A DNA stretch of 64,000 bases, from NCBI GenBank assembly GCA_000002445.1, contig CP000069.1, forward strand, positions 704,001 to 768,000. Direction: 5' to 3'. The notes beneath the pieces were generated by a model that was not told the DNA's origin, made no database searches, and was given only the letters and a program-made list of their open reading frames with translations. This stretch comes from Trypanosoma brucei (lineage: Eukaryota). This document shows, one piece after another, positions 6,698 to 43,760 of the stretch. The translations under genes and the position numbers were made by a program. Each line of letters opens with the position of its first letter. Position 1 is the first letter of the stretch.

Positions 6698-8043
6698 CGT
6701 TTGCTTGCATCCACTCTTAGGTGTGGCGCCTTCGTTAGGGACCGCAGCACCGGCTGCTGTTTCCAGAGCATCTTCCCTTGCTTCATTTTCGTCCTCTGTT
6801 TTACCGTTATGTGTGTGTGTGTGCTACCGCGGTAAAGTAACCTAGCATGTTTGACGTTGTGTGCCACTTTTTTATGTGGACGAACGGTCCCACATGTTGG
6901 GAAATGTTAGTCCCTCAAGCACGTACGTGTACGAGAGAGGAATGAATGTATCGTATGCTATCTAGTAAATCCAACAAAAAGCATTCCCCTTTCTTTGACA
7001 CCTCCAGCATATTGCGCACCCTTTAAGGTTTGCCGGACGCGATCCTTCTACTTTCTACAGTTCGTTTGGCACAACGAATGGGACATTGTGAAGAAATCAG
7101 TTGTTCGGAACATAATATATTGCCCTTGATTAGCTTTGCAGACGTTTGTACGCCATGTGTACGTACAGAGCGAGTGGCACATCCTTGTCAGTGAATTGAA
7201 GAAACGGGGGAAAGTACACACTTCCTGAGTTAGAGCATGGCCTCACACATGTCTCTCTCCAGTCTTTTTTCGACTCTACCCTCTATTTTTTAGTTTTGAT
7301 ATTGTATTCCCTTTCATCGTCGCCCCAGTACTCGAGACACAGCTCACATTACTTATAGGTACCGCAGTCACTCCGCACTACAAGAAAAATACCAGCAACA
7401 AGTCAAAGTTTGAAATAAAGGGGAGGAAATGCGTAATTTAAGTGCTTTGCATGTACGGTGCATTTTTAATGTATTGGACCGATCCACGACGGTGACGCAA
7501 CTGTTACCCTCAGGATGCCACTACAGATTCGACCGCTCTAGCACCACACAGAGGGTCTACATTATGAATAACTCACAACATAACACATGAACAACGAATG
7601 AGGGAATAAATGATAAGATAAGGAAATGTCATTTGTGAAGAGCGCATTTATATTGTATGCATGGAAAGATGCACTTAATGTGGTTCGGTTTGTGTATTTC
7701 TAATTTGCTGCTGTAGTTGCTGACGTTTGTGGGCACTCGATAGTATTCTGTGTTTCGTATGAGGACCCCTACGTCTCTTCTTCCTTTCTTTGGCTCACGT
7801 TATCTGTAGGTTGTGCTGTACGCTCTGCCTTGACTGCTACTCGTATTGTTAGTCGGTTGTCGTTTTCACCCGTTACACTGCTGCCCTATATATATATATT
7901 GGCTTCGGTCCCACACTTTACTACATTATTTGTTAACCTACTGCTGTGATGCCCCTTCTATCATAGGAAAGGTATTATTAAGAAAAAGGCGTGGCGCGGG
8001 TGCCCCACTTCGTGGAAGAGAGTGGTTCTTAACGAATTAAGCT

Positions 8044-8610
8044 ATGCGGGCGTGGAGTAACCTGCTAGCGTCTGTGACGATGGCGCCGTTTTTTCTGCTA
8101 TGTTTTGTCTGCTCTTGCGTTTGGCCCGCCGTAGCTACTGCGGGAAGCATTCCCCTTGCTGTTGTGGGCAGTGTCATCACTTCAGAGGATGCGTACCGTT
8201 TTATTGAGGTTCAAGCTGTCGACGGCGCCACAGGAGCTGTTGTGCGCTCCGTGCCACTGGATGCAACGCTTACCTTTACTTTTCACGGTCTACCCCAAAC
8301 TGTAAGTGAGGTGCGGCTCTTGCCGAGGCTGCCTGAGCGGCGGTTTCGTCTCGATAGCAGTGCCTCTGTACTCACTGCGCCTTTGCGGACAAAAGATGGG
8401 GATGGGTGGCTCCACTTATCCGCGATTGTAGAGCAGCAAGATGGTTCACAAGCAGGGGATCAATTACCTGGGAGTATAAGTGCGGCAGTTATGGCAGCGA
8501 TGATTATTGCCCTTGCGGTGATTGGCCGATATCGATTGTTGTCGCTGTTTCAGTTTCCGGCTCCAAAACCGCCGAAGTTGCGTCGTGTAGCTGTGGCAGT
8601 GAATCGGTAA
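8044..8610 (+). CDS. hypothetical type-I membrane protein (copy 1) with an N-terminal signal peptide and a C-terminal TM helix
   Basis: 188-aa ORF with a hydrophobic N-terminus (MAPFFLLCFVCSCVWPAVATA) and a C-terminal hydrophobic stretch (AAVMAAMIIALAVIG) followed by basic residues. Confidence 0.5.
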   Translation: MRAWSNLLASVTMAPFFLLCFVCSCVWPAVATAGSIPLAVVGSVITSEDAYRFIEVQAVDGATGAVVRSVPLDATLTFTFHGLPQTVSEVRLLPRLPERRFRLDSSASVLTAPLRTKDGDGWLHLSAIVEQQDGSQAGDQLPGSISAAVMAAMIIALAVIGRYRLLSLFQFPAPKPPKLRRVAVAVNR

Positions 8611-9017
8611 GGCGAGTTTATGGACACGTGTGTGTTCTTGACTTTTCTCACATTCGTATTGCGGTGTGCTGTTGCGAGCATTTTGCATTTTCTGGTGTTG
8701 GTGTTGGTGTTGGTGCTGGGTATAGGGGTGCTACTGCTTGTTTATATGTATGTGTGCGTGTAACTCTCACTAGCATATGAACTCGAGTACTTTCTTCCTG
8801 CCTCTGCTGCTCGTCTGTTATCATGAAGCAGGTACCTCCTAACTCCACTGAGTTTGTAATTGGGCGCATTTTAACCTTCCTGTTGCGTTGCCACTGTAAC
8901 AGCACTGTACCCCTTTCCTTCACTTCTGTGCATATGTGCGTGCCAACAACTTTCCGACGACCCGCTGTCTTGTAGAAAGTAGCAACAGGTGAGCCCGTCA
9001 CGCCTTCTCCCCTGACG

Positions 9018-9770
9018 ATGCCCGCACGTGGCTGTGCCCCTGTTGATGAGCAGATCGCTGGGACAGACACGGAAGGACGACGCTACAGGTCAGTGGAGGA
9101 GATGTGGGGACGCGAGTTGCAGGGTAACTTGTACGACGCGAAGACAGGGTGGTATGGTAAGTCTCTCCAGTACTGGGGCAGCGTTCCGGCTACCGTCAGC
9201 GGTGTACTGGGCGGTATGGATCATGTGCATGATATCGACATCCGTGATTCACGCGCTTTCATATGCTGCTTGCCGGAGCGCGGCACTACACGTGCACTTG
9301 ACTGCGGTGCCGGTATTGGTCGAATCACCAAGTCCCTTTTGTGCCACTTATACGATGTGACAGATCTTCTGGAACCGGTGGCAAGCATGCTGGAGAAGGC
9401 GAAAGAGGAACTTGAGGGGTTTCCAGTGGGCGATTTCTTTCAGTCGTCGATGGAGACAGCGAAGCTTCAACCGAAGACATACGACCTCATTGTTATTCAA
9501 TGGGCGGCGATCTATCTGACAGACGAGGACTTTGTTGCTTTCTTGGTACGCTGCAAGGAGGCACTGACACCGAAGGGGTACATATTCTTCAAGGAGAATT
9601 GCGCGTCTGACGACGAGTTCATTGTTGACAAGGAGGACAGTAGCCTGACGCGATCCGACAAGCACTACAAGCGTATATTTGCCGCTGCCGGTATTGAGGT
9701 TGTTAAGGAGGCTATGCAAGGCGATTGGCCTGATGATCTGCTGAAGGTGAAGATGTACGCACTACGCTAA
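9018..9770 (+). CDS. alpha N-terminal protein methyltransferase, NTMT1/METTL11A family (copy 1)
   Basis: Family signature GWYGKSLQYW...VSGVLGG...DIDIRDSRAF. SAM-binding motif I LDCGAGIGRITKSLL. The 250-aa length is typical of the family. Confidence 0.8.
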   Translation: MPARGCAPVDEQIAGTDTEGRRYRSVEEMWGRELQGNLYDAKTGWYGKSLQYWGSVPATVSGVLGGMDHVHDIDIRDSRAFICCLPERGTTRALDCGAGIGRITKSLLCHLYDVTDLLEPVASMLEKAKEELEGFPVGDFFQSSMETAKLQPKTYDLIVIQWAAIYLTDEDFVAFLVRCKEALTPKGYIFFKENCASDDEFIVDKEDSSLTRSDKHYKRIFAAAGIEVVKEAMQGDWPDDLLKVKMYALR

Positions 9771-10144
9771 GCAGTTGGTCCTCCCACCGGTTGTTGATGT
9801 GTTCTCACTTCTTGTTGGCGCATTGCTGTTGTCGTCACTTTGTTTTGTTGTTCTTTGCATGGTTTATTTTTTTCAATTAGAGGCCACTACCTCTGCGTTG
9901 CCATCGCTTGGCTTACCCTAACGGTGGCACTGCCAACCCTCGTACTCGTCACACGGTGGTCTTCTACCTCTGCATGAATTTTTTGTGTTATTTTTCTTAA
10001 TGTCCGACTATTTATTGTTGTTACGTCCCTTAGCTACTTTTGTGTGTGTTTAGTGTTGTTACTTTTGTAGCGGGTAAATCAATTCACGGTTATCAGGTTA
10101 AATAGGGGTAGCCATAATCAGGACTCTGGTGTGTAAAGGCGTGC

Positions 10145-10591
10145 GTGCGTAGACAGAGAGATTACATCGAGATGTCTGCACTTGCGGAGGCCGAGCGCAT
10201 GGAGCGCGAAAAAGCCCTTATGGAGGGACAGCAGCGGGTGGACATGCTCCGTGAGACGGTACGTATAATGGCGAATCGGCAAGCCGTTCTCGTCGGGACG
10301 AAGCGCCGTCTGCAAATTTCCACCGGAGAGTTGCAGCGTCTCTCTTCTGACCACTGTGTGTATGAGAGTGTGGGCCGCGTGTTTCTCCGGACACCGGTGC
10401 CGGCGTTCATAGAGAAGCAGATGGAGGCTGCAGAGAGGTGCGAGGCCGAAGAGAAGCGGCTGATGAGTGAGAAGCAGAGAGTTGTGGAGCAACTGCAGAA
10501 GGATGAAGTGCAGCTCCGTGAAGCAGCACAGCAGTACATGGCTGAAATGAGTGCCCGTCGGCAGTTACAACAGCAGCAGCAGAAACAGTAA
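10145..10591 (+). CDS. prefoldin beta-type subunit-like coiled-coil protein (copy 1)
   Basis: 148 aa, arranged as coiled coil, then a beta-hairpin segment (CVYESVGRVFLRTPVP), then coiled coil, with a Q-rich tail. The assignment rests on this architecture only. Confidence 0.45.
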   Translation: MRRQRDYIEMSALAEAERMEREKALMEGQQRVDMLRETVRIMANRQAVLVGTKRRLQISTGELQRLSSDHCVYESVGRVFLRTPVPAFIEKQMEAAERCEAEEKRLMSEKQRVVEQLQKDEVQLREAAQQYMAEMSARRQLQQQQQKQ

Positions 10592-10948
10592 CAGCTACGC
10601 TCTGCCCGCAATCGGCGTTCTAGGTATCTGCCGATATTGTGCATTTCTGTTGTCTGAGGTGTGCGCTACAGAATGTGCTGCTTTGGAGTGCGGCACCCTA
10701 TCAGCAAGGGTCCGTTCCAAGTAGTTTTGGCGTGCGTGTGTGAGTTTGACTGTGATGCATGGGACACCGTATAATTTAACGTCTCAGTCACTGGTGATTT
10801 CTAGGTCTGTTTTCATTTGTGTGTACCCTGTTTTCTGTTTCCATTCCTGTTCTGGGTACATCTTCCTCTTTTGTTTCTCAAACCCGTTATGTGAACGTGG
10901 GGAGGAAGGGAGTGTGTGGCACTCGGTCGGTTGCGTTGAAGGTGAGGT

Positions 10949-13738
10949 TTGCTTGGACCGGCGATGCTGTGCAGCGGCCGCATTATTCTCAAGAAGAAAT
11001 GGATTCCTCCACTTGGTTACCGGCCGAAGGATTTCGAGAGAAAATTGCGTTCTCCGCGTTCGTCGAAACCGTGGCGCGACCGCCGCGCGGCATCGGGTGG
11101 GCAGATTGAGGTTTCACCGAGTACCGCGGCGACGAACATTCCGCGCGGTGACCTTGTCTTTAGGCCCCCGCTCGGTATTCGTGATGTGCGACCGGGCTCT
11201 CCTTCGGCGCTTCTTCCAACCTTTGGATTTTCAGAAGAGCATCTTGCTGCGCATGCTCTTCCCGCTGCGGGGTCGCAGGTGGAAGGCGGGGATGTGTTAG
11301 CTGTAGCGGACCCACGGTCAGCATCACATCTGACGCTACCATTTGGGAGGGCACTAAACGTTAATGTTGAAGAAATCAAGACATATGAGGAGGGACCTGT
11401 GCCCATACACCTTCAGCAATTCCGGCGTAGTAGGCGGGAAGCAGCCGATTCCATCATTCTACCTCGCCATATTAACCGACTGTTCCATAAAATAATGGGT
11501 TGGTCGGAAGACCTCGTGAAAGTGGAAATGGATGAAGCCCCAACCCCAAACACAGGTGGAGTGCCCTCTGACACCGCGGCAGTGCGTGCGAAGGAAGCAC
11601 AGGAGTCTGAAGTTCCGTTGCTGAGGATGAAATACGATAACGTTGTGGACAAGATGAAGTATGGTGTTCTTCTTGACAATTATGAGAAGGACAAGTTTGC
11701 GATCGAACACCAACTTGAGATTGCTGGCGAGAAGTTCGAGCGGAAGTTCCTTGACTGGGAGGGTATGCATGTTCTCGATCAGGACCCCAGTGCGGCAGTG
11801 CGCGAGGTGCTTGAGAACAAGGCATCAATAGTAATGGAACAACCATCCTCGTTTGCCATACCTGTAGTGAATCGTGACTGCTGCCGCGGGTGTGGTGCGC
11901 TTCTGCAGGACCAAGATGAGAACTCTTTCGGGTATGTGCGGAAAGGTGATGTGGAGCGGTACATCATTGAGAAACAACAGAAAATGAGGGCGCGTGCTGA
12001 GTACGCGGATCGAATGTCTGAGCTGCAGGCGCACTGGCGGAAACATGGTCGGCGTGTGGGCGAGGAGTGGCTGGATTTTATGACCCAGGAGGAATTTGAT
12101 GCCTTTTACCGAGATAGGAACGCGCCGTTTGTATGCCACCGCTGCCACGCGCTAGAGAACCTCGGGGTGGAGGGGCGGCGTCGCATATGGTCAGCACCGG
12201 ACTTCACTGACAAGTTGCGTGCCCTTCGTGAGAAGAAATGTGTAGTGGTTCTTGTTGTTGACGTAACAGATTTTCCTGGGACTATGGTGTATGACCTCCC
12301 GGGCCTCATATCGATGAACAATGATGTGATAATTGCTGTGAATAAGATGGATTGTGTTAGGAATCGCTCCTTCAACTACCGAGGCAAGGATCGTGCGGTC
12401 GCTGCTTGCCTTGTGACCGAGCGGTACGTGAGACGGTGGGTGACTGGGATCGCCGTTCAGTTTGGACTACCACGTCACCAGATAAAGGACGTGATTCCTT
12501 TGTCTGCGAAGCGTGGTTGGAATGTAGAGGCTCTAATAGCGGCTGTGGAGGAGGCCTCCAACCTCAACCTTCGGCGACCAACAAAACCCATACCGACGTA
12601 TTTCGTTGGTGTTGCGAATGTTGGGAAGTCCTCCGTTATTAACGCCATTGCCCACAAACTGTATGTGCCTCTGCCACCCCACCCGGAGAGTCGGAAGGTA
12701 TACTACACGAAGAAGGCACCGGATGGAAGTGAGTCTGTTTTCTGGCGGTGGTACACACCTCCTAATGTGAACCAGGCGGAAATGATTGACATTCCATCTC
12801 GGCACGACAAGAAAGCCTCGAAGCTGGTAACTACCTCCTCCTTGCCTGGTACCACGGTTGACGCTGTTGCAGTGCGCGTTTCGCTGAGTAAAGGCGCGGA
12901 GAAGGGCCGTGCACATCTGTTCGACACACCCGGCCTCCTTCCGCATTGGCACCGTCACTCACCCCTGACGCTACTACAGATGCGACGCACCCTCATTCGC
13001 AAGTTCCGCAATCCTCAGTGCTTTATCCTGGTGCCTGGGAACACATTGTTTCTCGGAGGCCTCTGTGCCGTGGACGTAGTGAAAGGAACGTCGCGCGGGA
13101 TGCTTTTCATGGTTTACACGTCGCAGAAGGTACGTAACGCCATCATTAACACAGACCGGTCGGATGAGTTTTGGAGGGAACAACTTGGTCGTGCGCTTGA
13201 CCCACCCGGATCTGTGGAACAAGTTGGTGATCTTCGGCTCACGGAGTCGAGGAGCTATTTGTTTGAATGCTACCAGCGTAACCGAAAGCGGCCAAAGGCG
13301 GATATCTATTTCTGCGGACTTGGCTGGGTTGCGTTCTGTGTGAATGAGCCCGCAGATGTGGTACTGCGTGTGCGGACCTTACCGGGAGTAGTGCATGGTG
13401 TGCGCGAACCGTTGCGGTACAAGGACCTACTGGCATTTAAAGGGTGGCCGAAACTGCGGCGTCGTTTCACTTCTGCCGGTGTTCCTAATGACGAGGAGGA
13501 TGATGACAACTCCATTGCCACCGTTGTACGACTGACTGCTGGAGGTGGTGCTTGTGGGTTATCCGCTGCACCTGTGTGCGGCTCACCGGAAGAAGATGTT
13601 GATGGTCCTGCAGTACGGGTTGTTCGCAAGTCGGTCTTGCCGAAACCCATTCCGGCGTCGTCCACTCCTTTCGACGGCGTTGTTGAGGAACTGAGCCTAT
13701 CGGGACAAGCGGGAGGCGGTACGGGTGCGGGGATGTGA
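10949..13738 (+). CDS. circularly permuted GTPase of the YqeH/NOA1 family (copy 1), a likely mitochondrial ribosome-assembly factor
   Basis: N-terminal zinc knuckle CCRGCGALLQDQDENSFGY...CHRCH as in YqeH. GTPase motifs occur in permuted order: G4 NKMD, G1 GVANVGKSSVINAI, and G3 DTPGL. Confidence 0.75.
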   Translation: MLGPAMLCSGRIILKKKWIPPLGYRPKDFERKLRSPRSSKPWRDRRAASGGQIEVSPSTAATNIPRGDLVFRPPLGIRDVRPGSPSALLPTFGFSEEHLAAHALPAAGSQVEGGDVLAVADPRSASHLTLPFGRALNVNVEEIKTYEEGPVPIHLQQFRRSRREAADSIILPRHINRLFHKIMGWSEDLVKVEMDEAPTPNTGGVPSDTAAVRAKEAQESEVPLLRMKYDNVVDKMKYGVLLDNYEKDKFAIEHQLEIAGEKFERKFLDWEGMHVLDQDPSAAVREVLENKASIVMEQPSSFAIPVVNRDCCRGCGALLQDQDENSFGYVRKGDVERYIIEKQQKMRARAEYADRMSELQAHWRKHGRRVGEEWLDFMTQEEFDAFYRDRNAPFVCHRCHALENLGVEGRRRIWSAPDFTDKLRALREKKCVVVLVVDVTDFPGTMVYDLPGLISMNNDVIIAVNKMDCVRNRSFNYRGKDRAVAACLVTERYVRRWVTGIAVQFGLPRHQIKDVIPLSAKRGWNVEALIAAVEEASNLNLRRPTKPIPTYFVGVANVGKSSVINAIAHKLYVPLPPHPESRKVYYTKKAPDGSESVFWRWYTPPNVNQAEMIDIPSRHDKKASKLVTTSSLPGTTVDAVAVRVSLSKGAEKGRAHLFDTPGLLPHWHRHSPLTLLQMRRTLIRKFRNPQCFILVPGNTLFLGGLCAVDVVKGTSRGMLFMVYTSQKVRNAIINTDRSDEFWREQLGRALDPPGSVEQVGDLRLTESRSYLFECYQRNRKRPKADIYFCGLGWVAFCVNEPADVVLRVRTLPGVVHGVREPLRYKDLLAFKGWPKLRRRFTSAGVPNDEEDDDNSIATVVRLTAGGGACGLSAAPVCGSPEEDVDGPAVRVVRKSVLPKPIPASSTPFDGVVEELSLSGQAGGGTGAGM

Positions 13739-14409
13739 GTCTGGCGTGCTACCGTTTGTGCGGAGAACCGACCGACCTTTGTGGGTATAACACAATGCAC
13801 TGATGTTTGATTCATCCTTTTTCATGTTGTCCCAACCGACTTACTTGTTCCGCTCCGTTCCGTTCTGTTGCGTTGTGCTGCTGATACTGCAATTTCTTTC
13901 TCGTCGCTTTTGTTGTCAATTTTCTTTATCGTGCTGCGGTGATCTGCAATGGAGGGGTATGCCGTCGCTGGGGATAGACGTTTGCATTTACATGGATAGT
14001 GTTTTCATAGCTGTTCTACCCCTGTTTCTGGAGACGCGGCATTGCTGTTGGCGTTACTTTATATGATTAGTTTTGGTTGTGTTCTGGGGGTGGATGTGCG
14101 ATGGACGGGTGTGCTGTCTGTCACCGAAGGCCGATGCGTTTTGGTACGCCGTGACTGATGTTACTGTTATTTTTTTAAAGGTTGCGTTGAGTTTCTATCG
14201 CCTTGATGTGTGTTGTTAGTGTCTTTTATTTTTGTTGTGTCACTCTTATTTTGCTGATTACTGCTTTATAGTGTAGCAGTTGTCATTCTCGATATCCTTT
14301 CTCCTTGATCTACTTCATTACGTGTAATATTACCCTGGTGGGATAACTCTGCCCAAGGCCGATAGTTATAACGCTAACAAGAATCATCTACTTTCAGTCA
14401 TCTAAAGGT

Positions 14410-15453
14410 TTGCAAATGTCATCCGCTCCTCTGAGGGTATACGTTCAGTGTAATCCATTACTTGACGTCTCGGCTCACGTGTCCGACGAATTTTTGGTCA
14501 AGTATGGTTTGGAGCGCGGTACGGCCATCTTGTTGTCTGAGCGCCAGAAAGGAATATTCGACGATATCGAGAAAATGCCCAATGTGCGGTATGTCCCTGG
14601 TGGATCTGGCTTGAACGTGGCGCGCGTTGCGCAGTGGATGCAGCAAGCGTATAAGGGGAAGTTTGTTACATATGTTGGCTGCATTGCAGATGATCGGTAC
14701 GGCAAGGTTCTGAAGGAAGCTGCCGAGCATGAAGGAATTGTGATGGCTGTTGAGCATACGACGAAAGCAGGGAGTGGTGCGTGTGCAGTTTGTATCACCG
14801 GCAAGGAACGCACTCTTGTTGCTGATCTTGGTGCAGCAAATCACCTCTCCAGTGAGCATATGCGCTCCCCTGCTGTCGTGAGGGCGATGGATGAATCCAG
14901 AATTTTCTATTTCTCCGGTTTCACGTTGACAGTTGACGTTAATCACGTTCTTCAGGCGTGCAGAAAGGCTCGTGAGGTGGATGGACTTTTTATGATCAAC
15001 TTATCGGCCCCTTTTATTATGCAATTCTTTTCCGCGCAACTTGGGGAGGTTCTGCCCTATACTGATATAATTGTGGCCAACCGACATGAGGCAAAGGAGT
15101 TTGCCAACATGATGAAGTGGGATACGGACTGTGTCGAGGAGATTGCAAGGCGAGCAGTATCTGAGGTTCCTTACACAGGCACAAAAGGTCGTGTTGTTGT
15201 GTTCACTCGTGATATTGAACCTACTGTAATTGCAACTAAGGATGGTGTGGAGACGGTTCCTGTACCTCAGTTAGATCAGGACAAAGTAATTGACATGAAT
15301 GGTGCTGGGGATGCATTTGTGGGTGGATTTTTGAGTGCTTATGCCGTTGGTAAGGATTTGCGGCGCTGTTGCGAAACTGGCCACTACACAGCACAAGAGG
15401 TTATCCAGCAAGACGGTTGCTCGTTCCCCGAGAAGCCCAGTTTCTCTCCTTGA
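14410..15453 (+). CDS. ADK: adenosine kinase (PfkB/ribokinase family), upstream tandem copy
   Basis: N-terminal PfkB motif GGSGLNVARVAQ and C-terminal motif DMNGAGDAFVGGFL. The 347-aa length is typical. T. brucei is known to carry tandem AK genes. Confidence 0.9.
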   Translation: MQMSSAPLRVYVQCNPLLDVSAHVSDEFLVKYGLERGTAILLSERQKGIFDDIEKMPNVRYVPGGSGLNVARVAQWMQQAYKGKFVTYVGCIADDRYGKVLKEAAEHEGIVMAVEHTTKAGSGACAVCITGKERTLVADLGAANHLSSEHMRSPAVVRAMDESRIFYFSGFTLTVDVNHVLQACRKAREVDGLFMINLSAPFIMQFFSAQLGEVLPYTDIIVANRHEAKEFANMMKWDTDCVEEIARRAVSEVPYTGTKGRVVVFTRDIEPTVIATKDGVETVPVPQLDQDKVIDMNGAGDAFVGGFLSAYAVGKDLRRCCETGHYTAQEVIQQDGCSFPEKPSFSP

Positions 15454-16110
15454 TGTTTTTTCACGTAAACACTTTGTTTAAAAATGTTATGTAACATAAA
15501 ATATATGTTGGTTTTTATCTTTTTTCTTTTCGGTTTCTGGTAAGTAAAGTTTAATGGGAAATATGGCGTAAGCGATATCATATCACTTTGTCTGAGGGAA
15601 GAAAGAATGAGGTCATAAATGGCAGATGGTAACAGTGTAATATCTTGAGTTGCTATCTATATTACCTTGTTTGTTTAAAAAAGGAGTTTGAAAGTGATGA
15701 TGCTGGTTGATTCACATCGTGTTTTTTTCACACTTTCTTTATTTCCTTTATCCTTCTTTTTTTTTCATAAAAGATGATTACATCCTATATTATGAGGGTT
15801 CAATATTATTGTTTCTACTTGTTGAGTTGTTTACGCTTGTATATCTACTCGTTTATTCCCAGGTGTGTACGCAGGCGGTGAGGAGGGTTGTAAGAAAACG
15901 GTAACGTAACAATTCTAACGGTTCCACATTTTTGCCTTTTTTTTTAAAGAATATATTAGGTCATGATGTTGTGCAGTTTTTGTTGAAGAGGGACATTTAC
16001 TTTATCTTCGATTACTCTTTTGAAGCACTAACGATGTAATGACCTGCCTCGCATAACACTACACTGAGCAAACTTGCTCACGTGAAGAATAAACGAATTC
16101 TGTATTTTGA

Positions 16111-16510
16111 TTGTGTCTGTGCCGTGGACGTAGTGAAAGGAACGTCGCGCGGGATGCTTTTCATGGTTTACACGTCGCAGAAGGTACGTAACGCCATCAT
16201 TAACACAGACCGGTCGGATGAGTTTTGGAGGGAACAACTTGGTCGTGCGCTTGACCCACCCGGATCTGTGGAACAAGTTGGTGATCTTCGGCTCACGGAG
16301 TCGAGGAGCTATTTGTTTGAATGCTACCAGCGTAACCGAAAGCGGCCAAAGGCGGATATCTATTTCTGCGGACTTGGCTGGGTTGCGTTCTGTGTGAATG
16401 AGCCCGCAGATGTGGTACTGCGTGTGCGGACCTTACCGGGAGTAGTGCATGGTGTGCGCGAACCGTTGCGGTACAAGGACCTACTGGCATTTAAAGGGTG
16501 GCCGAAACTG
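16111..16510 (+). pseudogene. 400-bp internal fragment of the YqeH-like GTPase gene, a third copy of 13070-13449, sitting at the duplication junction. It is part of the chimeric ORF 16082-16582.
   Basis: The ORF 16082-16582 translation (CAVDVVKGTSRGMLFMVYTSQ...LLAFKGWPKL) is identical to GTPase residues encoded at 13070-13449. It is then fused in frame to sequence homologous to 7645 onwards. There is no start context or N-terminal domain. Confidence 0.85.
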
Positions 16511-16909
16511 CATTTATATTGTATGCATGGAAAGATGCACTTAATGTGGTTCGGTTTGTGTATTTCTAATTTGCTGCTGTAGTTGCTGACGTTTGTGGGC
16601 ACTCGATAGTATTCTGTGTTTCGTATGAGGACCCCTACGTCTCTTCTTCCTTTCTTTGGCTCACGTTATCTGTAGGTTGTGCTGTACGCTCTGCCTTGAC
16701 TGCTACTCGTATTGTTAGTCGGTTGTCGTTTTCACCCGTTACACTGCTGCCCTATATATATATATTGGCTTCGGTCCCACACTTTACTACATTATTTGTT
16801 AACCTACTGCTGTGATGCCCCTTCTATCATAGGAAAGGTATTATTAAGAAAAAGGCGTGGCGCGGGTGCCCCACTTCGTGGAAGAGAGTGGTTCTTAACG
16901 AATTAAGCT

Positions 16910-17476
16910 ATGCGGGCGTGGAGTAACCTGCTAGCGTCTGTGACGATGGCGCCGTTTTTTCTGCTATGTTTTGTCTGCTCTTGCGTTTGGCCCGCCGTAG
17001 CTACTGCGGGAAGCATTCCCCTTGCTGTTGTGGGCAGTGTCATCACTTCAGAGGATGCGTACCGTTTTATTGAGGTTCAAGCTGTCGACGGCGCCACAGG
17101 AGCTGTTGTGCGCTCCGTGCCACTGGATGCAACGCTTACCTTTACTTTTCACGGTCTACCCCAAACTGTAAGTGAGGTGCGGCTCTTGCCGAGGCTGCCT
17201 GAGCGGCGGTTTCGTCTCGATAGCAGTGCCTCTGTACTCACTGCGCCTTTGCGGACAAAAGATGGGGATGGGTGGCTCCACTTATCCGCGATTGTAGAGC
17301 AGCAAGATGGTTCACAAGCAGGGGATCAATTACCTGGGAGTATAAGTGCGGCAGTTATGGCAGCGATGATTATTGCCCTTGCGGTGATTGGCCGATATCG
17401 ATTGTTGTCGCTGTTTCAGTTTCCGGCTCCAAAACCGCCGAAGTTGCGTCGTGTAGCTGTGGCAGTGAATCGGTAA
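16910..17476 (+). CDS. hypothetical type-I membrane protein (copy 2)
   Basis: Translation identical to 8044-8610. Confidence 0.5.
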   Translation: MRAWSNLLASVTMAPFFLLCFVCSCVWPAVATAGSIPLAVVGSVITSEDAYRFIEVQAVDGATGAVVRSVPLDATLTFTFHGLPQTVSEVRLLPRLPERRFRLDSSASVLTAPLRTKDGDGWLHLSAIVEQQDGSQAGDQLPGSISAAVMAAMIIALAVIGRYRLLSLFQFPAPKPPKLRRVAVAVNR

Positions 17477-17883
17477 GGCGAGTTTATGGACACGTGTGTG
17501 TTCTTGACTTTTCTCACATTCGTATTGCGGTGTGCTGTTGCGAGCATTTTGCATTTTCTGGTGTTGGTGTTGGTGTTGGTGCTGGGTATAGGGGTGCTAC
17601 TGCTTGTTTATATGTATGTGTGCGTGTAACTCTCACTAGCATATGAACTCGAGTACTTTCTTCCTGCCTCTGCTGCTCGTCTGTTATCATGAAGCAGGTA
17701 CCTCCTAACTCCACTGAGTTTGTAATTGGGCGCATTTTAACCTTCCTGTTGCGTTGCCACTGTAACAGCACTGTACCCCTTTCCTTCACTTCTGTGCATA
17801 TGTGCGTGCCAACAACTTTCCGACGACCCGCTGTCTTGTAGAAAGTAGCAACAGGTGAGCCCGTCACGCCTTCTCCCCTGACG

Positions 17884-18636
17884 ATGCCCGCACGTGGCTG
17901 TGCCCCTGTTGATGAGCAGATCGCTGGGACAGACACGGAAGGACGACGCTACAGGTCAGTGGAGGAGATGTGGGGACGCGAGTTGCAGGGTAACTTGTAC
18001 GACGCGAAGACAGGGTGGTATGGTAAGTCTCTCCAGTACTGGGGCAGCGTTCCGGCTACCGTCAGCGGTGTACTGGGCGGTATGGATCATGTGCATGATA
18101 TCGACATCCGTGATTCACGCGCTTTCATATGCTGCTTGCCGGAGCGCGGCACTACACGTGCACTTGACTGCGGTGCCGGTATTGGTCGAATCACCAAGTC
18201 CCTTTTGTGCCACTTATACGATGTGACAGATCTTCTGGAACCGGTGGCAAGCATGCTGGAGAAGGCGAAAGAGGAACTTGAGGGGTTTCCAGTGGGCGAT
18301 TTCTTTCAGTCGTCGATGGAGACAGCGAAGCTTCAACCGAAGACATACGACCTCATTGTTATTCAATGGGCGGCGATCTATCTGACAGACGAGGACTTTG
18401 TTGCTTTCTTGGTACGCTGCAAGGAGGCACTGACACCGAAGGGGTACATATTCTTCAAGGAGAATTGCGCGTCTGACGACGAGTTCATTGTTGACAAGGA
18501 GGACAGTAGCCTGACGCGATCCGACAAGCACTACAAGCGTATATTTGCCGCTGCCGGTATTGAGGTTGTTAAGGAGGCTATGCAAGGCGATTGGCCTGAT
18601 GATCTGCTGAAGGTGAAGATGTACGCACTACGCTAA
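17884..18636 (+). CDS. alpha N-terminal protein methyltransferase NTMT1 family (copy 2)
   Basis: Translation identical to 9018-9770. Confidence 0.8.
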   Translation: MPARGCAPVDEQIAGTDTEGRRYRSVEEMWGRELQGNLYDAKTGWYGKSLQYWGSVPATVSGVLGGMDHVHDIDIRDSRAFICCLPERGTTRALDCGAGIGRITKSLLCHLYDVTDLLEPVASMLEKAKEELEGFPVGDFFQSSMETAKLQPKTYDLIVIQWAAIYLTDEDFVAFLVRCKEALTPKGYIFFKENCASDDEFIVDKEDSSLTRSDKHYKRIFAAAGIEVVKEAMQGDWPDDLLKVKMYALR

Positions 18637-19010
18637 GCAGTTGGTCCTCCCACCGGTTGTTGATGTGTTCTCACTTCTTGTTGGCGCATTGCTGTTGTCG
18701 TCACTTTGTTTTGTTGTTCTTTGCATGGTTTATTTTTTTCAATTAGAGGCCACTACCTCTGCGTTGCCATCGCTTGGCTTACCCTAACGGTGGCACTGCC
18801 AACCCTCGTACTCGTCACACGGTGGTCTTCTACCTCTGCATGAATTTTTTGTGTTATTTTTCTTAATGTCCGACTATTTATTGTTGTTACGTCCCTTAGC
18901 TACTTTTGTGTGTGTTTAGTGTTGTTACTTTTGTAGCGGGTAAATCAATTCACGGTTATCAGGTTAAATAGGGGTAGCCATAATCAGGACTCTGGTGTGT
19001 AAAGGCGTGC

Positions 19011-19457
19011 GTGCGTAGACAGAGAGATTACATCGAGATGTCTGCACTTGCGGAGGCCGAGCGCATGGAGCGCGAAAAAGCCCTTATGGAGGGACAGCAG
19101 CGGGTGGACATGCTCCGTGAGACGGTACGTATAATGGCGAATCGGCAAGCCGTTCTCGTCGGGACGAAGCGCCGTCTGCAAATTTCCACCGGAGAGTTGC
19201 AGCGTCTCTCTTCTGACCACTGTGTGTATGAGAGTGTGGGCCGCGTGTTTCTCCGGACACCGGTGCCGGCGTTCATAGAGAAGCAGATGGAGGCTGCAGA
19301 GAGGTGCGAGGCCGAAGAGAAGCGGCTGATGAGTGAGAAGCAGAGAGTTGTGGAGCAACTGCAGAAGGATGAAGTGCAGCTCCGTGAAGCAGCACAGCAG
19401 TACATGGCTGAAATGAGTGCCCGTCGGCAGTTACAACAGCAGCAGCAGAAACAGTAA
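19011..19457 (+). CDS. prefoldin beta-like protein (copy 2)
   Basis: Translation identical to 10145-10591. Confidence 0.45.
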   Translation: MRRQRDYIEMSALAEAERMEREKALMEGQQRVDMLRETVRIMANRQAVLVGTKRRLQISTGELQRLSSDHCVYESVGRVFLRTPVPAFIEKQMEAAERCEAEEKRLMSEKQRVVEQLQKDEVQLREAAQQYMAEMSARRQLQQQQQKQ

Positions 19458-19814
19458 CAGCTACGCTCTGCCCGCAATCGGCGTTCTAGGTATCTGCCGA
19501 TATTGTGCATTTCTGTTGTCTGAGGTGTGCGCTACAGAATGTGCTGCTTTGGAGTGCGGCACCCTATCAGCAAGGGTCCGTTCCAAGTAGTTTTGGCGTG
19601 CGTGTGTGAGTTTGACTGTGATGCATGGGACACCGTATAATTTAACGTCTCAGTCACTGGTGATTTCTAGGTCTGTTTTCATTTGTGTGTACCCTGTTTT
19701 CTGTTTCCATTCCTGTTCTGGGTACATCTTCCTCTTTTGTTTCTCAAACCCGTTATGTGAACGTGGGGAGGAAGGGAGTGTGTGGCACTCGGTCGGTTGC
19801 GTTGAAGGTGAGGT

Positions 19815-22604
19815 TTGCTTGGACCGGCGATGCTGTGCAGCGGCCGCATTATTCTCAAGAAGAAATGGATTCCTCCACTTGGTTACCGGCCGAAGGATTT
19901 CGAGAGAAAATTGCGTTCTCCGCGTTCGTCGAAACCGTGGCGCGACCGCCGCGCGGCATCGGGTGGGCAGATTGAGGTTTCACCGAGTACCGCGGCGACG
20001 AACATTCCGCGCGGTGACCTTGTCTTTAGGCCCCCGCTCGGTATTCGTGATGTGCGACCGGGCTCTCCTTCGGCGCTTCTTCCAACCTTTGGATTTTCAG
20101 AAGAGCATCTTGCTGCGCATGCTCTTCCCGCTGCGGGGTCGCAGGTGGAAGGCGGGGATGTGTTAGCTGTAGCGGACCCACGGTCAGCATCACATCTGAC
20201 GCTACCATTTGGGAGGGCACTAAACGTTAATGTTGAAGAAATCAAGACATATGAGGAGGGACCTGTGCCCATACACCTTCAGCAATTCCGGCGTAGTAGG
20301 CGGGAAGCAGCCGATTCCATCATTCTACCTCGCCATATTAACCGACTGTTCCATAAAATAATGGGTTGGTCGGAAGACCTCGTGAAAGTGGAAATGGATG
20401 AAGCCCCAACCCCAAACACAGGTGGAGTGCCCTCTGACACCGCGGCAGTGCGTGCGAAGGAAGCACAGGAGTCTGAAGTTCCGTTGCTGAGGATGAAATA
20501 CGATAACGTTGTGGACAAGATGAAGTATGGTGTTCTTCTTGACAATTATGAGAAGGACAAGTTTGCGATCGAACACCAACTTGAGATTGCTGGCGAGAAG
20601 TTCGAGCGGAAGTTCCTTGACTGGGAGGGTATGCATGTTCTCGATCAGGACCCCAGTGCGGCAGTGCGCGAGGTGCTTGAGAACAAGGCATCAATAGTAA
20701 TGGAACAACCATCCTCGTTTGCCATACCTGTAGTGAATCGTGACTGCTGCCGCGGGTGTGGTGCGCTTCTGCAGGACCAAGATGAGAACTCTTTCGGGTA
20801 TGTGCGGAAAGGTGATGTGGAGCGGTACATCATTGAGAAACAACAGAAAATGAGGGCGCGTGCTGAGTACGCGGATCGAATGTCTGAGCTGCAGGCGCAC
20901 TGGCGGAAACATGGTCGGCGTGTGGGCGAGGAGTGGCTGGATTTTATGACCCAGGAGGAATTTGATGCCTTTTACCGAGATAGGAACGCGCCGTTTGTAT
21001 GCCACCGCTGCCACGCGCTAGAGAACCTCGGGGTGGAGGGGCGGCGTCGCATATGGTCAGCACCGGACTTCACTGACAAGTTGCGTGCCCTTCGTGAGAA
21101 GAAATGTGTAGTGGTTCTTGTTGTTGACGTAACAGATTTTCCTGGGACTATGGTGTATGACCTCCCGGGCCTCATATCGATGAACAATGATGTGATAATT
21201 GCTGTGAATAAGATGGATTGTGTTAGGAATCGCTCCTTCAACTACCGAGGCAAGGATCGTGCGGTCGCTGCTTGCCTTGTGACCGAGCGGTACGTGAGAC
21301 GGTGGGTGACTGGGATCGCCGTTCAGTTTGGACTACCACGTCACCAGATAAAGGACGTGATTCCTTTGTCTGCGAAGCGTGGTTGGAATGTAGAGGCTCT
21401 AATAGCGGCTGTGGAGGAGGCCTCCAACCTCAACCTTCGGCGACCAACAAAACCCATACCGACGTATTTCGTTGGTGTTGCGAATGTTGGGAAGTCCTCC
21501 GTTATTAACGCCATTGCCCACAAACTGTATGTGCCTCTGCCACCCCACCCGGAGAGTCGGAAGGTATACTACACGAAGAAGGCACCGGATGGAAGTGAGT
21601 CTGTTTTCTGGCGGTGGTACACACCTCCTAATGTGAACCAGGCGGAAATGATTGACATTCCATCTCGGCACGACAAGAAAGCCTCGAAGCTGGTAACTAC
21701 CTCCTCCTTGCCTGGTACCACGGTTGACGCTGTTGCAGTGCGCGTTTCGCTGAGTAAAGGCGCGGAGAAGGGCCGTGCACATCTGTTCGACACACCCGGC
21801 CTCCTTCCGCATTGGCACCGTCACTCACCCCTGACGCTACTACAGATGCGACGCACCCTCATTCGCAAGTTCCGCAATCCTCAGTGCTTTATCCTGGTGC
21901 CTGGGAACACATTGTTTCTCGGAGGCCTCTGTGCCGTGGACGTAGTGAAAGGAACGTCGCGCGGGATGCTTTTCATGGTTTACACGTCGCAGAAGGTACG
22001 TAACGCCATCATTAACACAGACCGGTCGGATGAGTTTTGGAGGGAACAACTTGGTCGTGCGCTTGACCCACCCGGATCTGTGGAACAAGTTGGTGATCTT
22101 CGGCTCACGGAGTCGAGGAGCTATTTGTTTGAATGCTACCAGCGTAACCGAAAGCGGCCAAAGGCGGATATCTATTTCTGCGGACTTGGCTGGGTTGCGT
22201 TCTGTGTGAATGAGCCCGCAGATGTGGTACTGCGTGTGCGGACCTTACCGGGAGTAGTGCATGGTGTGCGCGAACCGTTGCGGTACAAGGACCTACTGGC
22301 ATTTAAAGGGTGGCCGAAACTGCGGCGTCGTTTCACTTCTGCCGGTGTTCCTAATGACGAGGAGGATGATGACAACTCCATTGCCACCGTTGTACGACTG
22401 ACTGCTGGAGGTGGTGCTTGTGGGTTATCCGCTGCACCTGTGTGCGGCTCACCGGAAGAAGATGTTGATGGTCCTGCAGTACGGGTTGTTCGCAAGTCGG
22501 TCTTGCCGAAACCCATTCCGGCGTCGTCCACTCCTTTCGACGGCGTTGTTGAGGAACTGAGCCTATCGGGACAAGCGGGAGGCGGTACGGGTGCGGGGAT
22601 GTGA
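19815..22604 (+). CDS. YqeH/NOA1-type circularly permuted GTPase (copy 2)
   Basis: Translation identical to 10949-13738. Confidence 0.75.
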   Translation: MLGPAMLCSGRIILKKKWIPPLGYRPKDFERKLRSPRSSKPWRDRRAASGGQIEVSPSTAATNIPRGDLVFRPPLGIRDVRPGSPSALLPTFGFSEEHLAAHALPAAGSQVEGGDVLAVADPRSASHLTLPFGRALNVNVEEIKTYEEGPVPIHLQQFRRSRREAADSIILPRHINRLFHKIMGWSEDLVKVEMDEAPTPNTGGVPSDTAAVRAKEAQESEVPLLRMKYDNVVDKMKYGVLLDNYEKDKFAIEHQLEIAGEKFERKFLDWEGMHVLDQDPSAAVREVLENKASIVMEQPSSFAIPVVNRDCCRGCGALLQDQDENSFGYVRKGDVERYIIEKQQKMRARAEYADRMSELQAHWRKHGRRVGEEWLDFMTQEEFDAFYRDRNAPFVCHRCHALENLGVEGRRRIWSAPDFTDKLRALREKKCVVVLVVDVTDFPGTMVYDLPGLISMNNDVIIAVNKMDCVRNRSFNYRGKDRAVAACLVTERYVRRWVTGIAVQFGLPRHQIKDVIPLSAKRGWNVEALIAAVEEASNLNLRRPTKPIPTYFVGVANVGKSSVINAIAHKLYVPLPPHPESRKVYYTKKAPDGSESVFWRWYTPPNVNQAEMIDIPSRHDKKASKLVTTSSLPGTTVDAVAVRVSLSKGAEKGRAHLFDTPGLLPHWHRHSPLTLLQMRRTLIRKFRNPQCFILVPGNTLFLGGLCAVDVVKGTSRGMLFMVYTSQKVRNAIINTDRSDEFWREQLGRALDPPGSVEQVGDLRLTESRSYLFECYQRNRKRPKADIYFCGLGWVAFCVNEPADVVLRVRTLPGVVHGVREPLRYKDLLAFKGWPKLRRRFTSAGVPNDEEDDDNSIATVVRLTAGGGACGLSAAPVCGSPEEDVDGPAVRVVRKSVLPKPIPASSTPFDGVVEELSLSGQAGGGTGAGM

Positions 22605-43724: not shown

Positions 43725-43760
<36 letters not shown>

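What the first reader, a model, noticed from the sequence alone, without database searches (positions are those of the whole stretch)
15220..16110. The two adenosine kinase paralogues are identical for 85 % of their length and then diverge, with unrelated 3' flanks
ADK-1 (14410-15453) and ADK-2 (23276-24319) are identical up to codon ~270. The last ~230 bp have clustered substitutions giving P/S, I/L, V/M and Q/R differences. Downstream sequences (15454 onwards vs 24320 onwards) share no similarity. This pattern marks the edge of a gene-conversion or duplication tract lying inside the ADK coding region. In trypanosomatids mRNA abundance is set mainly by 3' UTRs, so two near-identical enzymes with completely different 3' UTRs are candidates for differential, perhaps stage-specific, expression. 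The V-to-M change sits inside the conserved anion-hole motif DMNGAGDAF(V/M)GGFL, next to the catalytic region.
Basis: partly seen in the sequence, partly recalled or inferred. Interest (0 to 1): 0.55.

Follow-up and report, generated by a model that had tools for sequence, protein, structure and literature searches.

The report
Trypanosome adenosine kinase duplicates, homogenised except tail
The two adenosine kinase genes of Trypanosoma brucei are the last genes of a duplicated five-gene block that recombination keeps identical, except for the final 234 bases of the kinase gene and everything after its stop codon; this is an ordinary, largely known kind of trypanosome gene duplication with a modest untested hint of isoform-specific expression.

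Summary
ADK-1 (ATG 14416-15453) and ADK-2 (23282-24319) differ at 8 bases, all in 15220-15411, giving P269S, I272L, V302M and Q332R. The 3' flanks are unrelated.

The window is T. b. brucei TREU927 chromosome 6 (Tb927.6.2300 and Tb927.6.2360). The genes end a 7.8-kb five-gene block (7644-15461 = 16510-24326). The first 7,576 bp are 100% identical, and homology stops at the ADK stop codon.

Comparison with T. b. gambiense and a gapless T. b. equiperdum assembly supports concerted evolution. About 20 strain-specific changes are shared by both copies within each genome. The 8 tail differences are identical in both subspecies, so they are old (dS about 0.07) and not sequencing errors.

Outgroups have one ADK; HECT follows it in T. 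cruzi and T. theileri. ADK-2 therefore keeps the ancestral flank, and ADK-1 has a new one (annotated 3' UTR 195 nt). The equiperdum assembly lacks ADK-1, as expected from deletion between 396-bp repeats.

The four-residue difference was published in 2009. Stage-specific expression is plausible but rests on one SILAC peptide, about 70-fold bloodstream-enriched. This is a new, well-resolved example of a known phenomenon, of low to moderate interest.

The parts
7644..15461 (+). Copy 1 of the duplicated five-gene block: 188-aa ORF 8044-8610, methyltransferase 9018-9770, prefoldin 10172-10591, YqeH/MMR_HSR1-like GTPase ORF 10949-13738, ADK-1.
   Evidence: Self-BLAST: 7644-15461 = 16510-24326, 7,818 bp, 8 mismatches, 1 gap. 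ORFs. Pfam labels of orthologous genes.
16510..24326 (+). Copy 2 of the same block, ending in ADK-2. It is followed by the ancestral downstream context (HECT ligase, ATG 25942).
   Evidence: HECT follows the single ADK in T. cruzi and T. theileri.
14416..15453 (+). ADK-1 CDS (Tb927.6.2300 type; P269, I272, V302, Q332).
   Evidence: PfkB domain.
23282..24319 (+). ADK-2 CDS (Tb927.6.2360 type; S269, L272, M302, R332). This is the form in PDB 2XTB, 3OTX, 4N08 and 4N09.
15220..15453 (+). Unhomogenised tail of ADK-1 (partner 24086-24319): 8 fixed paralogue-specific substitutions, 5 of them within 10 bp (15220-15229). dS 0.070, dN 0.026.
15462..16115 (+). Spacer B, a unique 654-bp sequence at the duplication junction. 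It supplies the ADK-1 3' UTR (annotated 195 nt, about 15454-15647) and a polypyrimidine tract plus AG (15751-15766, AG at 15772), probably the next trans-splice signal.
   Evidence: No similarity to Y, X or the intergenic region. UTR sequence from TriTrypDB as reproduced in S2 Text of PMC5568443. Polypyrimidine tracts. Present after the ADK-1 type in DAL972 and in OVI; absent in IVM.
16116..16511 (+). Third, 100% identical copy of an internal 396-bp piece of the GTPase ORF (= 13062-13457 = 21928-22323). It is joined to the start of copy 2 with a 2-bp (GC) overlap and forms a chimeric ORF at 16082-16582.
13062..13457 (+). Direct-repeat partner of the 396-bp fragment. Recombination between it and 16116-16511 would delete ADK-1 plus B and give exactly the structure seen in T. 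b. equiperdum IVM-t1.
24320..25941 (+). Flank Y, the 1.6-kb intergenic region downstream of ADK-2 leading to HECT. It contains the ADK-2 3' UTR (length not determined here; polypyrimidine tracts at 25168, 25387, 25746 and 25867-25893).

Best explanation
The two ADK genes are the last genes of two copies of a lineage-specific tandem segmental duplication (period 8,866 bp, five genes) on T. brucei chromosome 6. Shown: the copies evolve in concert, because recombination between them keeps 7.6 kb identical within each genome while the genomes drift apart. Inferred: that recombination is gene conversion and/or unequal sister-chromatid exchange. Shown: homogenisation stops about 234 bp before the ADK stop codon, and the tail retains an older set of 8 substitutions that predates the brucei/gambiense split. 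Shown: homology of any kind ends at the stop codon, which is the original duplication breakpoint. ADK-2 kept the ancestral 3' flank leading to the HECT gene. ADK-1 acquired a new 3' UTR and processing signals from a 654-bp junction spacer B, followed by a 396-bp GTPase-gene fragment. Inferred: the tail escapes homogenisation because it is a short terminal stretch next to non-homology. It is broken into identity blocks of 89, 90 and 42 bp by a dense mismatch cluster, and these are too short for efficient homologous recombination. Selection on the isoform differences may add to this. Inferred: the different 3' UTRs (about 0.2 kb annotated for ADK-1; probably 0.7-1.4 kb for ADK-2) allow separate post-transcriptional control, but this has not been demonstrated.
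For: Block structure and exact boundaries. Non-random clustering of differences: (P about 8e-13; about 250 differences would be expected in the identical 7,576 bp at the tail rate). Concerted evolution: in 13458-15461, sites 13963, 14052, 14122, 14275, 14520 and 15444 differ between TREU927 and DAL972 but are the same in both paralogues of each genome, while the 8 tail sites are paralogue-specific and identical in both subspecies. Elsewhere in the block, 6 of 6 DAL972-specific changes (including a 4-bp and a 6-bp indel) and 9 of 9 IVM-specific substitutions are present in both copies. Single origin: the same junctions occur in other assemblies, namely 13457|7644 in TREU927, DAL972 and IVM, and B|13062 and ADK-1|B in DAL972 and OVI. 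Ancestral state: a single ADK in T. vivax, T. cruzi and T. theileri, with the GTPase upstream and HECT downstream in the latter two. Real isoforms. ADK-1 is transcribed and polyadenylated within B: a 195-nt annotated UTR, with a polypyrimidine tract plus AG about 100 nt downstream. The general phenomenon is documented for T. brucei arrays.
Against: (1) The left edge of the block shows no comparable unhomogenised zone. Site 7768, 124 bp from that edge, is homogenised in DAL972, so a simple symmetric edge effect is insufficient. (2) Site 15444, which lies inside the tail and 10 bp from the stop, behaves as homogenised, and this is hard to reconcile with a tail that never converts. (3) DAL972 has gaps and mis-joins through the 396-bp repeat, and OVI is collapsed, so only TREU927 and IVM give reliable structures. 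(4) Sequence-level collapse of near-identical copies during assembly cannot be fully excluded for TREU927. (5) No copy-specific RNA data could be retrieved.
Confidence: 0.8

Rival explanations
1. Functional subfunctionalisation. ADK-1 and ADK-2 are maintained as distinct isoforms: their four differences beside the ATP / substrate-inhibition pocket are protected from homogenisation by selection, and the unrelated 3' UTRs give stage-specific expression (ADK-1 mainly in bloodstream forms). This adds to the structural explanation rather than replacing it.
For: All four variant residues flank ATP-pocket contacts listed for TbrAK (E268/T270, F301, I330), and substrate inhibition occurs at the ATP site. 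The 8 differences are fixed across two subspecies while neighbouring sites, including 15444, are homogenised. In Urbaniak 2012 SILAC, a separate Tb927.6.2300 group has one peptide and 8.1% coverage, which matches the 28-aa ADK-1-specific C-terminal peptide, with PCF/BSF = 0.014. The flanks are unrelated and UTR lengths probably differ strongly. PGKB/PGKC is a precedent.
Against: dN/dS of 0.37 in the tail is unremarkable, with 4 synonymous changes alongside 4 replacements. The substitutions are conservative, and the field regards the isoforms as equivalent. A gapless assembly of T. b. equiperdum lacks ADK-1 altogether, so ADK-1 is dispensable at least in that bloodstream-only lineage. The SILAC value rests on a single peptide from two separately maintained 427 lines, and another study flags it as an outlier. 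Total ADK is unchanged between stages in a same-strain study. There is no UA(U)6 motif, no VSG 16-mer, no Rfam element and no unusual UTR fold.
Confidence: 0.2
2. Two-step history without need for an edge effect. An older small duplication (a 3,054-bp unit = 13062-15461 plus B) created ADK-1 and ADK-2, which then diverged. A much younger rearrangement copied 7644-13457 into the second unit, and a crossover or conversion inside ADK near 15220 replaced most of one ADK. Identity upstream of 15220 would then reflect mainly youth.
For: This explains the asymmetry between the clean left edge and the diverged right edge, the odd 396-bp fragment and its 2-bp microhomology junction, and the tail dS of 0.07, which is well above the 0.3-0.7% inter-strain divergence.
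Against: All junctions are shared by TREU927, DAL972 and/or IVM, so the rearrangements predate the split of these strains. Yet about 20 strain-specific changes are present in both copies, which requires continuing homogenisation after the split. Youth alone therefore cannot explain the identity. The model needs several rearrangement steps.
Confidence: 0.3
3. Assembly artefact. The perfect identity of 7.6 kb is a consensus of collapsed reads from two similar copies, and only differences within one read length of the unique flank (the last roughly 240 bp) were assigned to the correct copy.
For: All differences lie within a Sanger read length of the unique 3' flanks. Two other assemblies of this locus are visibly mis-assembled.
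Against: No differences appear within a read length of the unique left flanks either. The gapless long-read IVM assembly also has identical copies carrying 9 shared strain-specific substitutions. DAL972 resolves copy-specific differences at 14928 and 15165, deeper in the repeat. The locus ID Tb06.4M18.780 suggests clone-based sequencing, but that is my inference.
Confidence: 0.05

Closest known systems
T. brucei phosphoglycerate kinase locus (PGKB/PGKC)
   Same: Tandemly linked, highly similar enzyme genes in one polycistronic unit, with coding regions related by recombination and completely different 3' UTRs. For PGK, those UTRs determine stage-specific expression (as stated in PMC5568443 and PMC3344917).
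   Different: PGKB carries UA(U)6 motifs bound by RBP10, and isoform-specific regulation is shown by many unique peptides. Neither ADK flank has UA(U)6, ADK mRNA is in the unbound set, and regulation rests on one peptide. PGK isoforms also differ in targeting signals, whereas the ADK isoforms differ by four conservative residues. The ADK genes are not adjacent and are separated by four other duplicated genes.
Concerted evolution of T. brucei tandem gene arrays (Jackson 2007, BMC Evol Biol 7:54; DAL972 genome paper)
   Same: Duplicates are identical or mosaic within a genome. Gene conversion tracts can span start or stop codons. [quoted passage not shown] Copies can be subspecies-specific.
   Different: Those surveys covered arrays of more than 3 directly repeated genes, and this locus is not mentioned in them. 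Here the unit is a five-gene, 8.9-kb segment present twice, with a junction made of a unique spacer plus an internal gene fragment, and a sharply defined old tail.
Characterised T. b. rhodesiense / T. b. brucei adenosine kinase (TbrAK; PDB 2XTB, 3OTX, 4N08, 4N09)
   Same: ADK-2 is that protein (S269, L272, M302, R332), apart from expression-tag residues and S2A in the rhodesiense construct. ADK-1 differs from it at 4 of 345 residues. Both have the G62-G63 switch and the D293-D299 anion-hole heptad.
   Different: No structure of the ADK-1 isoform is in the PDB copy searched, and I found no ADK-1-specific kinetics in the papers I could read. Its V302 matches the consensus of other adenosine kinases, while M302 in ADK-2 is the derived state. 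S269 and R332 in ADK-2 are shared with T. congolense.

Membership tests
PfkB-family adenosine kinase (EC 2.7.1.20) | PfkB carbohydrate/nucleoside kinase domain over the full length, with close identity to an experimentally characterised AK | tested here: met
   Precomputed PF00294 on all homologues. 99-100% identity over 345 aa to solved TbAK/TbrAK chains, E about 1e-233.
PfkB-family adenosine kinase (EC 2.7.1.20) | Gly-Gly lid switch (G62 G63), anion-hole heptad DMNGAGD (293-299) and catalytic D299, intact in both copies | tested here: met
   These residues are invariant columns in the 13-sequence alignment. The motif definition comes from PMC3101181. Both copies are identical there; V/M302 lies outside the heptad.
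Concerted evolution of tandem duplicates by gene conversion or unequal exchange | Paralogues within a genome are more alike than orthologues between genomes | tested here: met
   About 20 strain-specific changes are shared by both copies in DAL972 and/or IVM, against 0 differences between the TREU927 copies over 7,576 bp.
Concerted evolution of tandem duplicates by gene conversion or unequal exchange | A single origin of the duplication (shared junctions), so that identity is not due to independent recent duplications | tested here: met
   Junction 13457|7644 occurs in TREU927, DAL972 and IVM. B|13062 and ADK-1|B occur in TREU927, DAL972 and OVI.
Concerted evolution of tandem duplicates by gene conversion or unequal exchange | A discrete tract boundary with a significantly non-random distribution of differences | tested here: met
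   All 8 differences lie in the last 242 of 7,818 bp, P about 8e-13.
Concerted evolution of tandem duplicates by gene conversion or unequal exchange | Directly observed mosaic or converted copies in some strains | tested here: inconclusive
   T. equiperdum OVI has a P269/I272 + M302/R332 chimera. However, that contig has a gap and a collapsed repeat, so the chimera may be an assembly product.
Stage-regulated paralogue pair controlled by distinct 3' UTRs (PGKB/PGKC type) | Unrelated 3' UTRs on otherwise near-identical genes | tested here: met
   ADK-1 UTR is annotated at 195 nt inside spacer B.
Stage-regulated paralogue pair controlled by distinct 3' UTRs (PGKB/PGKC type) | A recognised regulatory element in one UTR (for example the RBP10 UA(U)6 motif or the VSG 16-mer) | tested here: not met
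   No UA(U)6 in either flank. ADK is listed among mRNAs less than 0.7x enriched with RBP10. No VSG 16-mer, no Rfam family, and UTR fold z = 0.0.
Stage-regulated paralogue pair controlled by distinct 3' UTRs (PGKB/PGKC type) | Copy-specific difference in mRNA or protein abundance between life-cycle stages | tested here: inconclusive
   One ADK-1-specific peptide has PCF/BSF 0.014. The shared protein group has LS/PC 0.81 in a same-strain study. RNA data sets retrieved either merge the two genes or use 5' tags that cannot separate them.

The most novel reading that the evidence does not exclude
ADK-1 is a T. brucei-lineage-specific, bloodstream-stage-biased adenosine kinase isoform. The segmental duplication gave it a new short 3' UTR. 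Its four substitutions beside the ATP / substrate-inhibition pocket (P269, I272, V302, Q332) are kept from being erased by the otherwise pervasive homogenisation because they tune substrate inhibition or activator sensitivity. If so, studies done only on ADK-2 (all solved structures and the hyperactivator work) would miss part of the parasite's adenosine-salvage and drug-activation capacity.
Probability: 0.12. Interest if true: 0.55.

Novelty: new member of a known kind. Interest (0 to 1): 0.3.

Why it matters
Adenosine kinase activates several trypanocidal adenosine analogues (cordycepin and tubercidin derivatives). It is also the target of a hyperactivator compound, so copy number and isoform content bear on drug action and resistance.

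This analysis shows three things:
- The two genes are not independent loci. They are linked by ongoing recombination.
- One of them (ADK-1) can be lost by a simple recombination between 396-bp repeats, and it is absent from one sequenced strain.
- Only ADK-2 has a solved structure in the PDB copy searched.

The locus is also a clean small example of where a homogenised tract ends relative to a duplication breakpoint. None of this overturns current understanding, because tandem duplicates with concerted evolution and divergent terminal UTRs are a well-described feature of trypanosome genomes.

Tried and rejected
- **Hidden similarity between the two 3' flanks, or between spacer B and the sequence upstream of copy 1:** word-7 BLAST and Smith-Waterman with shuffles found nothing above chance.
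- **Ectopic donor in the window for the 5-in-10-bp cluster:** none within 6 mismatches.
- **Structured or known RNA elements in the flanks:** no Rfam hit at gathering threshold; the ADK-1 UTR fold has z = 0.0; no UA(U)6 in either flank, with isolated PUF-type and ATTTA matches left uninterpreted; no VSG 16-mer.
- **Remnant in flank Y of the extra gene between ADK and HECT in T. cruzi and T. theileri:** no tblastn hit.
- **DAL972 'adjacent ADK genes':** rejected as evidence of a different arrangement, because the adjacency spans an N-gap and the assembly jumps through the 396-bp repeat.
- **OVI chimeric ADK as proof of conversion:** set aside because the contig is gapped and collapsed.
- **Copy-specific expression data:** Siegel 2010 has no held supplements. 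Jensen 2014 and Dejung 2016 have no entries. Kolev 2010 merges the two genes. The Gunasekera 2012 peptide tables are truncated before the isoform-specific peptides, and its SLT values are 5' tags that cannot distinguish the copies.
- **Lüscher 2007 (PMC2151413):** not held in the library.
- **Purine-response stem-loop (NT8-type) in either UTR:** could not be tested, because the cap on new papers was reached before I could retrieve the element's sequence.
Full report
**1. The observation**

The listed start is a TTG. The real start is the ATG two codons later (14416 / 23282), giving 345-aa proteins that are exact matches to XP_845351 (Q584S6) and XP_845357 (Q584S0; locus Tb927.6.2360) of Trypanosoma brucei brucei TREU927; Tb927.6.2300 for the first follows from the coordinates and length. 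The window is therefore TREU927 chromosome 6.

The genes differ at exactly eight nucleotides: 15220, 15222, 15225, 15228, 15229, 15319, 15410 and 15411. These give P269S, two synonymous changes, I272L, V302M and Q332R. After the stop codon the sequences share only a short T-run and are then unrelated. A word-7 BLAST and a Smith-Waterman test with shuffled controls find nothing above chance between the two flanks.

**2.

A self-comparison of the window shows that the ADK genes are the tail of a much larger repeat. Positions 7644-15461 equal 16510-24326: 7,818 bp, a period of 8,866 bp, 8 mismatches and one gap in the terminal T-run. Each copy carries five ORFs:
- a 188-aa ORF;
- a 250-aa methyltransferase;
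- a prefoldin subunit;
- a 929-aa ORF for a YqeH/MMR_HSR1-like GTPase;
- ADK.

The first 7,576 bp are 100% identical, intergenic DNA included. All eight mismatches lie in the last 242 bp (P about 8e-13). At the tail's rate, about 250 differences would be expected in the identical part.

Between the copies lie two elements:
- a unique 654-bp spacer, here called B (15462-16115);
- a third, perfect copy of an internal 396-bp piece of the GTPase ORF (16116-16511 = 13062-13457 = 21928-22323). It is joined to the first base of copy 2 through a 2-bp overlap.

Two edges therefore need to be kept apart. The edge of the perfectly identical tract is inside the ADK CDS, between 15219 and 15220. The edge of all homology is at the ADK stop codon.

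**3. Are the differences real, and is the identity real?**

The differences are real:
- The ADK-1 protein is identical in the independently sequenced T. b. gambiense DAL972.
- The ADK-2 form is the one cloned and crystallised from T. b. rhodesiense and T. b. brucei (PDB 2XTB, 3OTX, 4N08, 4N09).
- Kuettel et al. [quoted passage not shown] They assigned peptide DIESTVLATK to Q584S0, which is ADK-2.
- Urbaniak et al. 2012 list a separate Tb927.6.2300 protein group with one peptide and 8.1% coverage. That coverage equals 28 of 345 residues. It matches only the ADK-1-specific C-terminal tryptic peptide, which exists because Q332 removes a cleavage site.

For the identity, I aligned the block from three other assemblies.
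- In 13458-15461, sites 13963, 14052, 14122, 14275, 14520 and 15444 differ between TREU927 and DAL972 but are the same in both paralogues of each genome. The eight tail sites are paralogue-specific and identical in the two subspecies.
- Elsewhere in the block, all six DAL972-specific changes (including 4-bp and 6-bp indels) are present in both copies. So are all nine substitutions specific to the gapless long-read T. b. equiperdum IVM-t1 assembly.
- The novel junctions are shared among assemblies, so the duplication arose once.

Together these results show concerted evolution. The copies have been homogenised repeatedly since the strains diverged, and the tail has not. Tail divergence (dS 0.070, dN 0.026, dN/dS 0.37) is an order of magnitude above the 0.3-0.7% divergence between strains.

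Assembly collapse is unlikely for three reasons. The long-read assembly shows the same pattern. DAL972 resolves copy-specific differences deeper in the repeat (14928, 15165). The left edge, which is equally close to unique sequence, shows none.

**4. Polarity and history**

T. vivax, T. cruzi and T. theileri each have a single ADK. The GTPase gene lies upstream, and in T. cruzi and T. theileri the HECT ligase lies downstream. Only one T. congolense ADK is on record. ADK-2, which is followed by HECT (ATG 25942), therefore keeps the ancestral downstream context. The ADK-1 / B junction is derived.

Protein polarisation is mixed:
- V302 (ADK-1) is the state in every outgroup except T. congolense, which has A, so M302 is derived.
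- S269 and R332 (ADK-2) are shared with T. congolense.
Both copies have therefore changed.

The IVM-t1 assembly reads kinase, 188aa, MT, PFD, GTPase truncated at 13457, 188aa, MT, PFD, GTPase, then one ADK of the ADK-2 type. It contains no 20-mer of spacer B across the equivalent of window 4811-34388. That is exactly the product of recombination between the 396-bp direct repeats. I interpret it as a deletion of ADK-1 plus B; this is an inference, based on the age of the tail and my own knowledge that T. equiperdum derives from T. brucei.

The DAL972 and OVI assemblies have gaps and take other paths through the 396-bp repeat. The apparent adjacency of the two ADKs in DAL972, and the chimeric P/I/M/R ADK in OVI, are therefore not reliable.

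**5. Why the tail escapes homogenisation (inference)**

The tail is the last 234 bp of homology before unrelated sequence. A dense cluster (five changes in 10 bp) and two further sites cut it into identity blocks of 89, 90 and 42 bp. From general knowledge of homologous recombination in T. brucei, efficiency is length-dependent and mismatch-sensitive. Such blocks should rarely support resolution of a conversion or crossover, so the tail stays linked to its own flank.

Two facts do not fit a simple edge effect:
- The left edge has no such zone; site 7768, 124 bp from that edge, is homogenised.
- Site 15444, inside the tail, behaves as homogenised.

Possible explanations are a two-step history (an older 3,054-bp unit and a younger left part), a self-reinforcing mismatch barrier, or selection on the isoforms. 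I cannot separate these with the data available.

**6. The 3' UTRs and expression**

The TriTrypDB 3' UTR of Tb927.6.2300, reproduced in S2 Text of Mugo and Clayton 2017, is 195 nt and matches window 15453-15647. About 100 nt downstream lie a polypyrimidine tract (15751-15766) and an AG (15772). From general knowledge of trypanosome mRNA processing, this spacing is expected for coupled polyadenylation and trans-splicing. Spacer B therefore appears to supply both the ADK-1 UTR and the splice signal for the next, chimeric ORF (16082-16582).

The ADK-2 UTR could not be retrieved. Polypyrimidine tracts in Y suggest 0.7-1.4 kb, but that is inference only.

Evidence on regulation is as follows:
- That S2 Text lists mRNAs less than 0.7x enriched with RBP10, so ADK is not an RBP10 target. 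Neither flank has UA(U)6.
- There is no Rfam element, VSG 16-mer or unusual fold.
- In a same-strain SILAC study, the shared ADK group has LS/PC = 0.81.
- In Urbaniak 2012, the ADK-1-specific peptide has PCF/BSF = 0.014 and ranks among ESAGs and VSGs. Gunasekera's comparison flags this gene as discordant between the studies.

That one value is the only direct hint of isoform-specific stage regulation. It could equally reflect loss or conversion of ADK-1 in the procyclic line, and the IVM deletion shows such loss is easy. ADK-2-specific peptides are seen in bloodstream forms. A C-terminal phosphosite assigned to Tb927.6.2360 is also reported.

**7. The protein differences**

Kuettel et al. 2011 define the anion hole as D293-D299. 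They list these ATP-pocket contacts: D266, I267, E268, T270, V283, L286, Q288, V291, F301, H323, Q327 and I330. The four variant residues (269, 272, 302, 332) each sit one or two positions from such contacts. Substrate inhibition occurs by adenosine binding in the ATP site.

However, V/M302 is next to the heptad, not inside it. The changes are conservative, and a 2023 review describes the isoforms as considered functionally equivalent.

**8. Comparison with what is known, and verdict**

Concerted evolution of T. brucei tandem duplicates, with divergent or curtailed flanks on terminal copies, is documented (Jackson 2007 and the DAL972 genome paper). The PGKB/PGKC pair is the classic case of near-identical enzymes with unrelated, regulatory 3' UTRs. 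The ADK isoforms and their four differences are published.

In the literature I could search, I did not find the following described:
- the five-gene block;
- the exact boundaries;
- the cross-strain proof of homogenisation up to 15219;
- the derived nature of the ADK-1 UTR;
- the 396-bp-repeat deletion that removes ADK-1 in IVM-t1.

These are new details of a known kind of system, so I rate novelty as 'new member of a known kind' and interest at about 0.3. The most novel reading still open is a selected, bloodstream-biased ADK-1 isoform with altered substrate inhibition. I give it roughly 12% probability.

Noticed in passing
window 16082-16582 (+): A chimeric 166-aa ORF. It has a short N-terminus from spacer B, 132 residues identical to the C-terminal part of the GTPase ORF (the 396-bp fragment), and a novel 23-residue tail read from the start of block copy 2. 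Five protein accessions lie between the two ADKs in GenBank, so it is probably annotated as a gene. It is likely a pseudogene or junction by-product.
   Followed up: partly
L003 and L009 (T. b. equiperdum IVM-t1, CM010677.1), equivalent to window 4811-34388: This gapless assembly has the block duplicated, but the first GTPase gene is truncated at 13457 and there is a single ADK of the ADK-2 type, with no ADK-1 and no spacer B. This matches deletion between the 396-bp direct repeats. The ADK there carries a frameshift near the 3' end, probably a long-read indel error.
   Followed up: yes
window 15444 (third base of F343 in ADK-1) and 24310: This synonymous site is C in both TREU927 copies but T in both DAL972 copies and in IVM. 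It therefore looks homogenised, although it lies 33 bp beyond the last paralogue-specific site and 10 bp before the end of homology. Unexplained; it could be a parallel mutation or a very short repair patch.
   Followed up: partly
L004 / L010 (T. equiperdum OVI, CZPT02001752.1): The single assembled ADK is a mosaic: ADK-1 bases at 15220-15229 and ADK-2 bases at 15319-15411. The contig has a 10-N gap and a collapsed repeat, so this could be a real recombinant or an assembly chimera.
   Followed up: partly
L001 (T. b. gambiense DAL972, FN554969.1) 7859-7959 and 11847-11946: There are two N-gaps and alternative joins through the 396-bp repeat. Spacer B appears twice, and the two ADK genes appear adjacent only across a gap. 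The DAL972 ADK-2 also has an extra K275R change (window-equivalent 15239), plus copy-specific differences at 14928 and 15165.
   Followed up: partly
window 654-1244 (+): A near-perfect tandem array of an 87-bp unit (about 6-7 copies, 99% identity). It is G-rich and in frame as 29-residue repeats rich in G, R, D, N and Q, presumably inside a coding region at the start of the window.
   Followed up: no
L006, L007 (T. cruzi) and L008 (T. theileri), around the ADK gene: In these outgroups, amastin genes and an NAD-dependent epimerase lie between the GTPase gene and ADK, and an extra ORF (397 or 522 aa, related at their C-termini) lies between ADK and HECT. None of these is present at the T. brucei locus, and no remnant was detected in flank Y.
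   Followed up: partly
window 43741-43773 and 63288-63320: A 33-bp direct repeat with 2 mismatches. It was the only other intra-window similarity found by self-BLAST.
   Followed up: no
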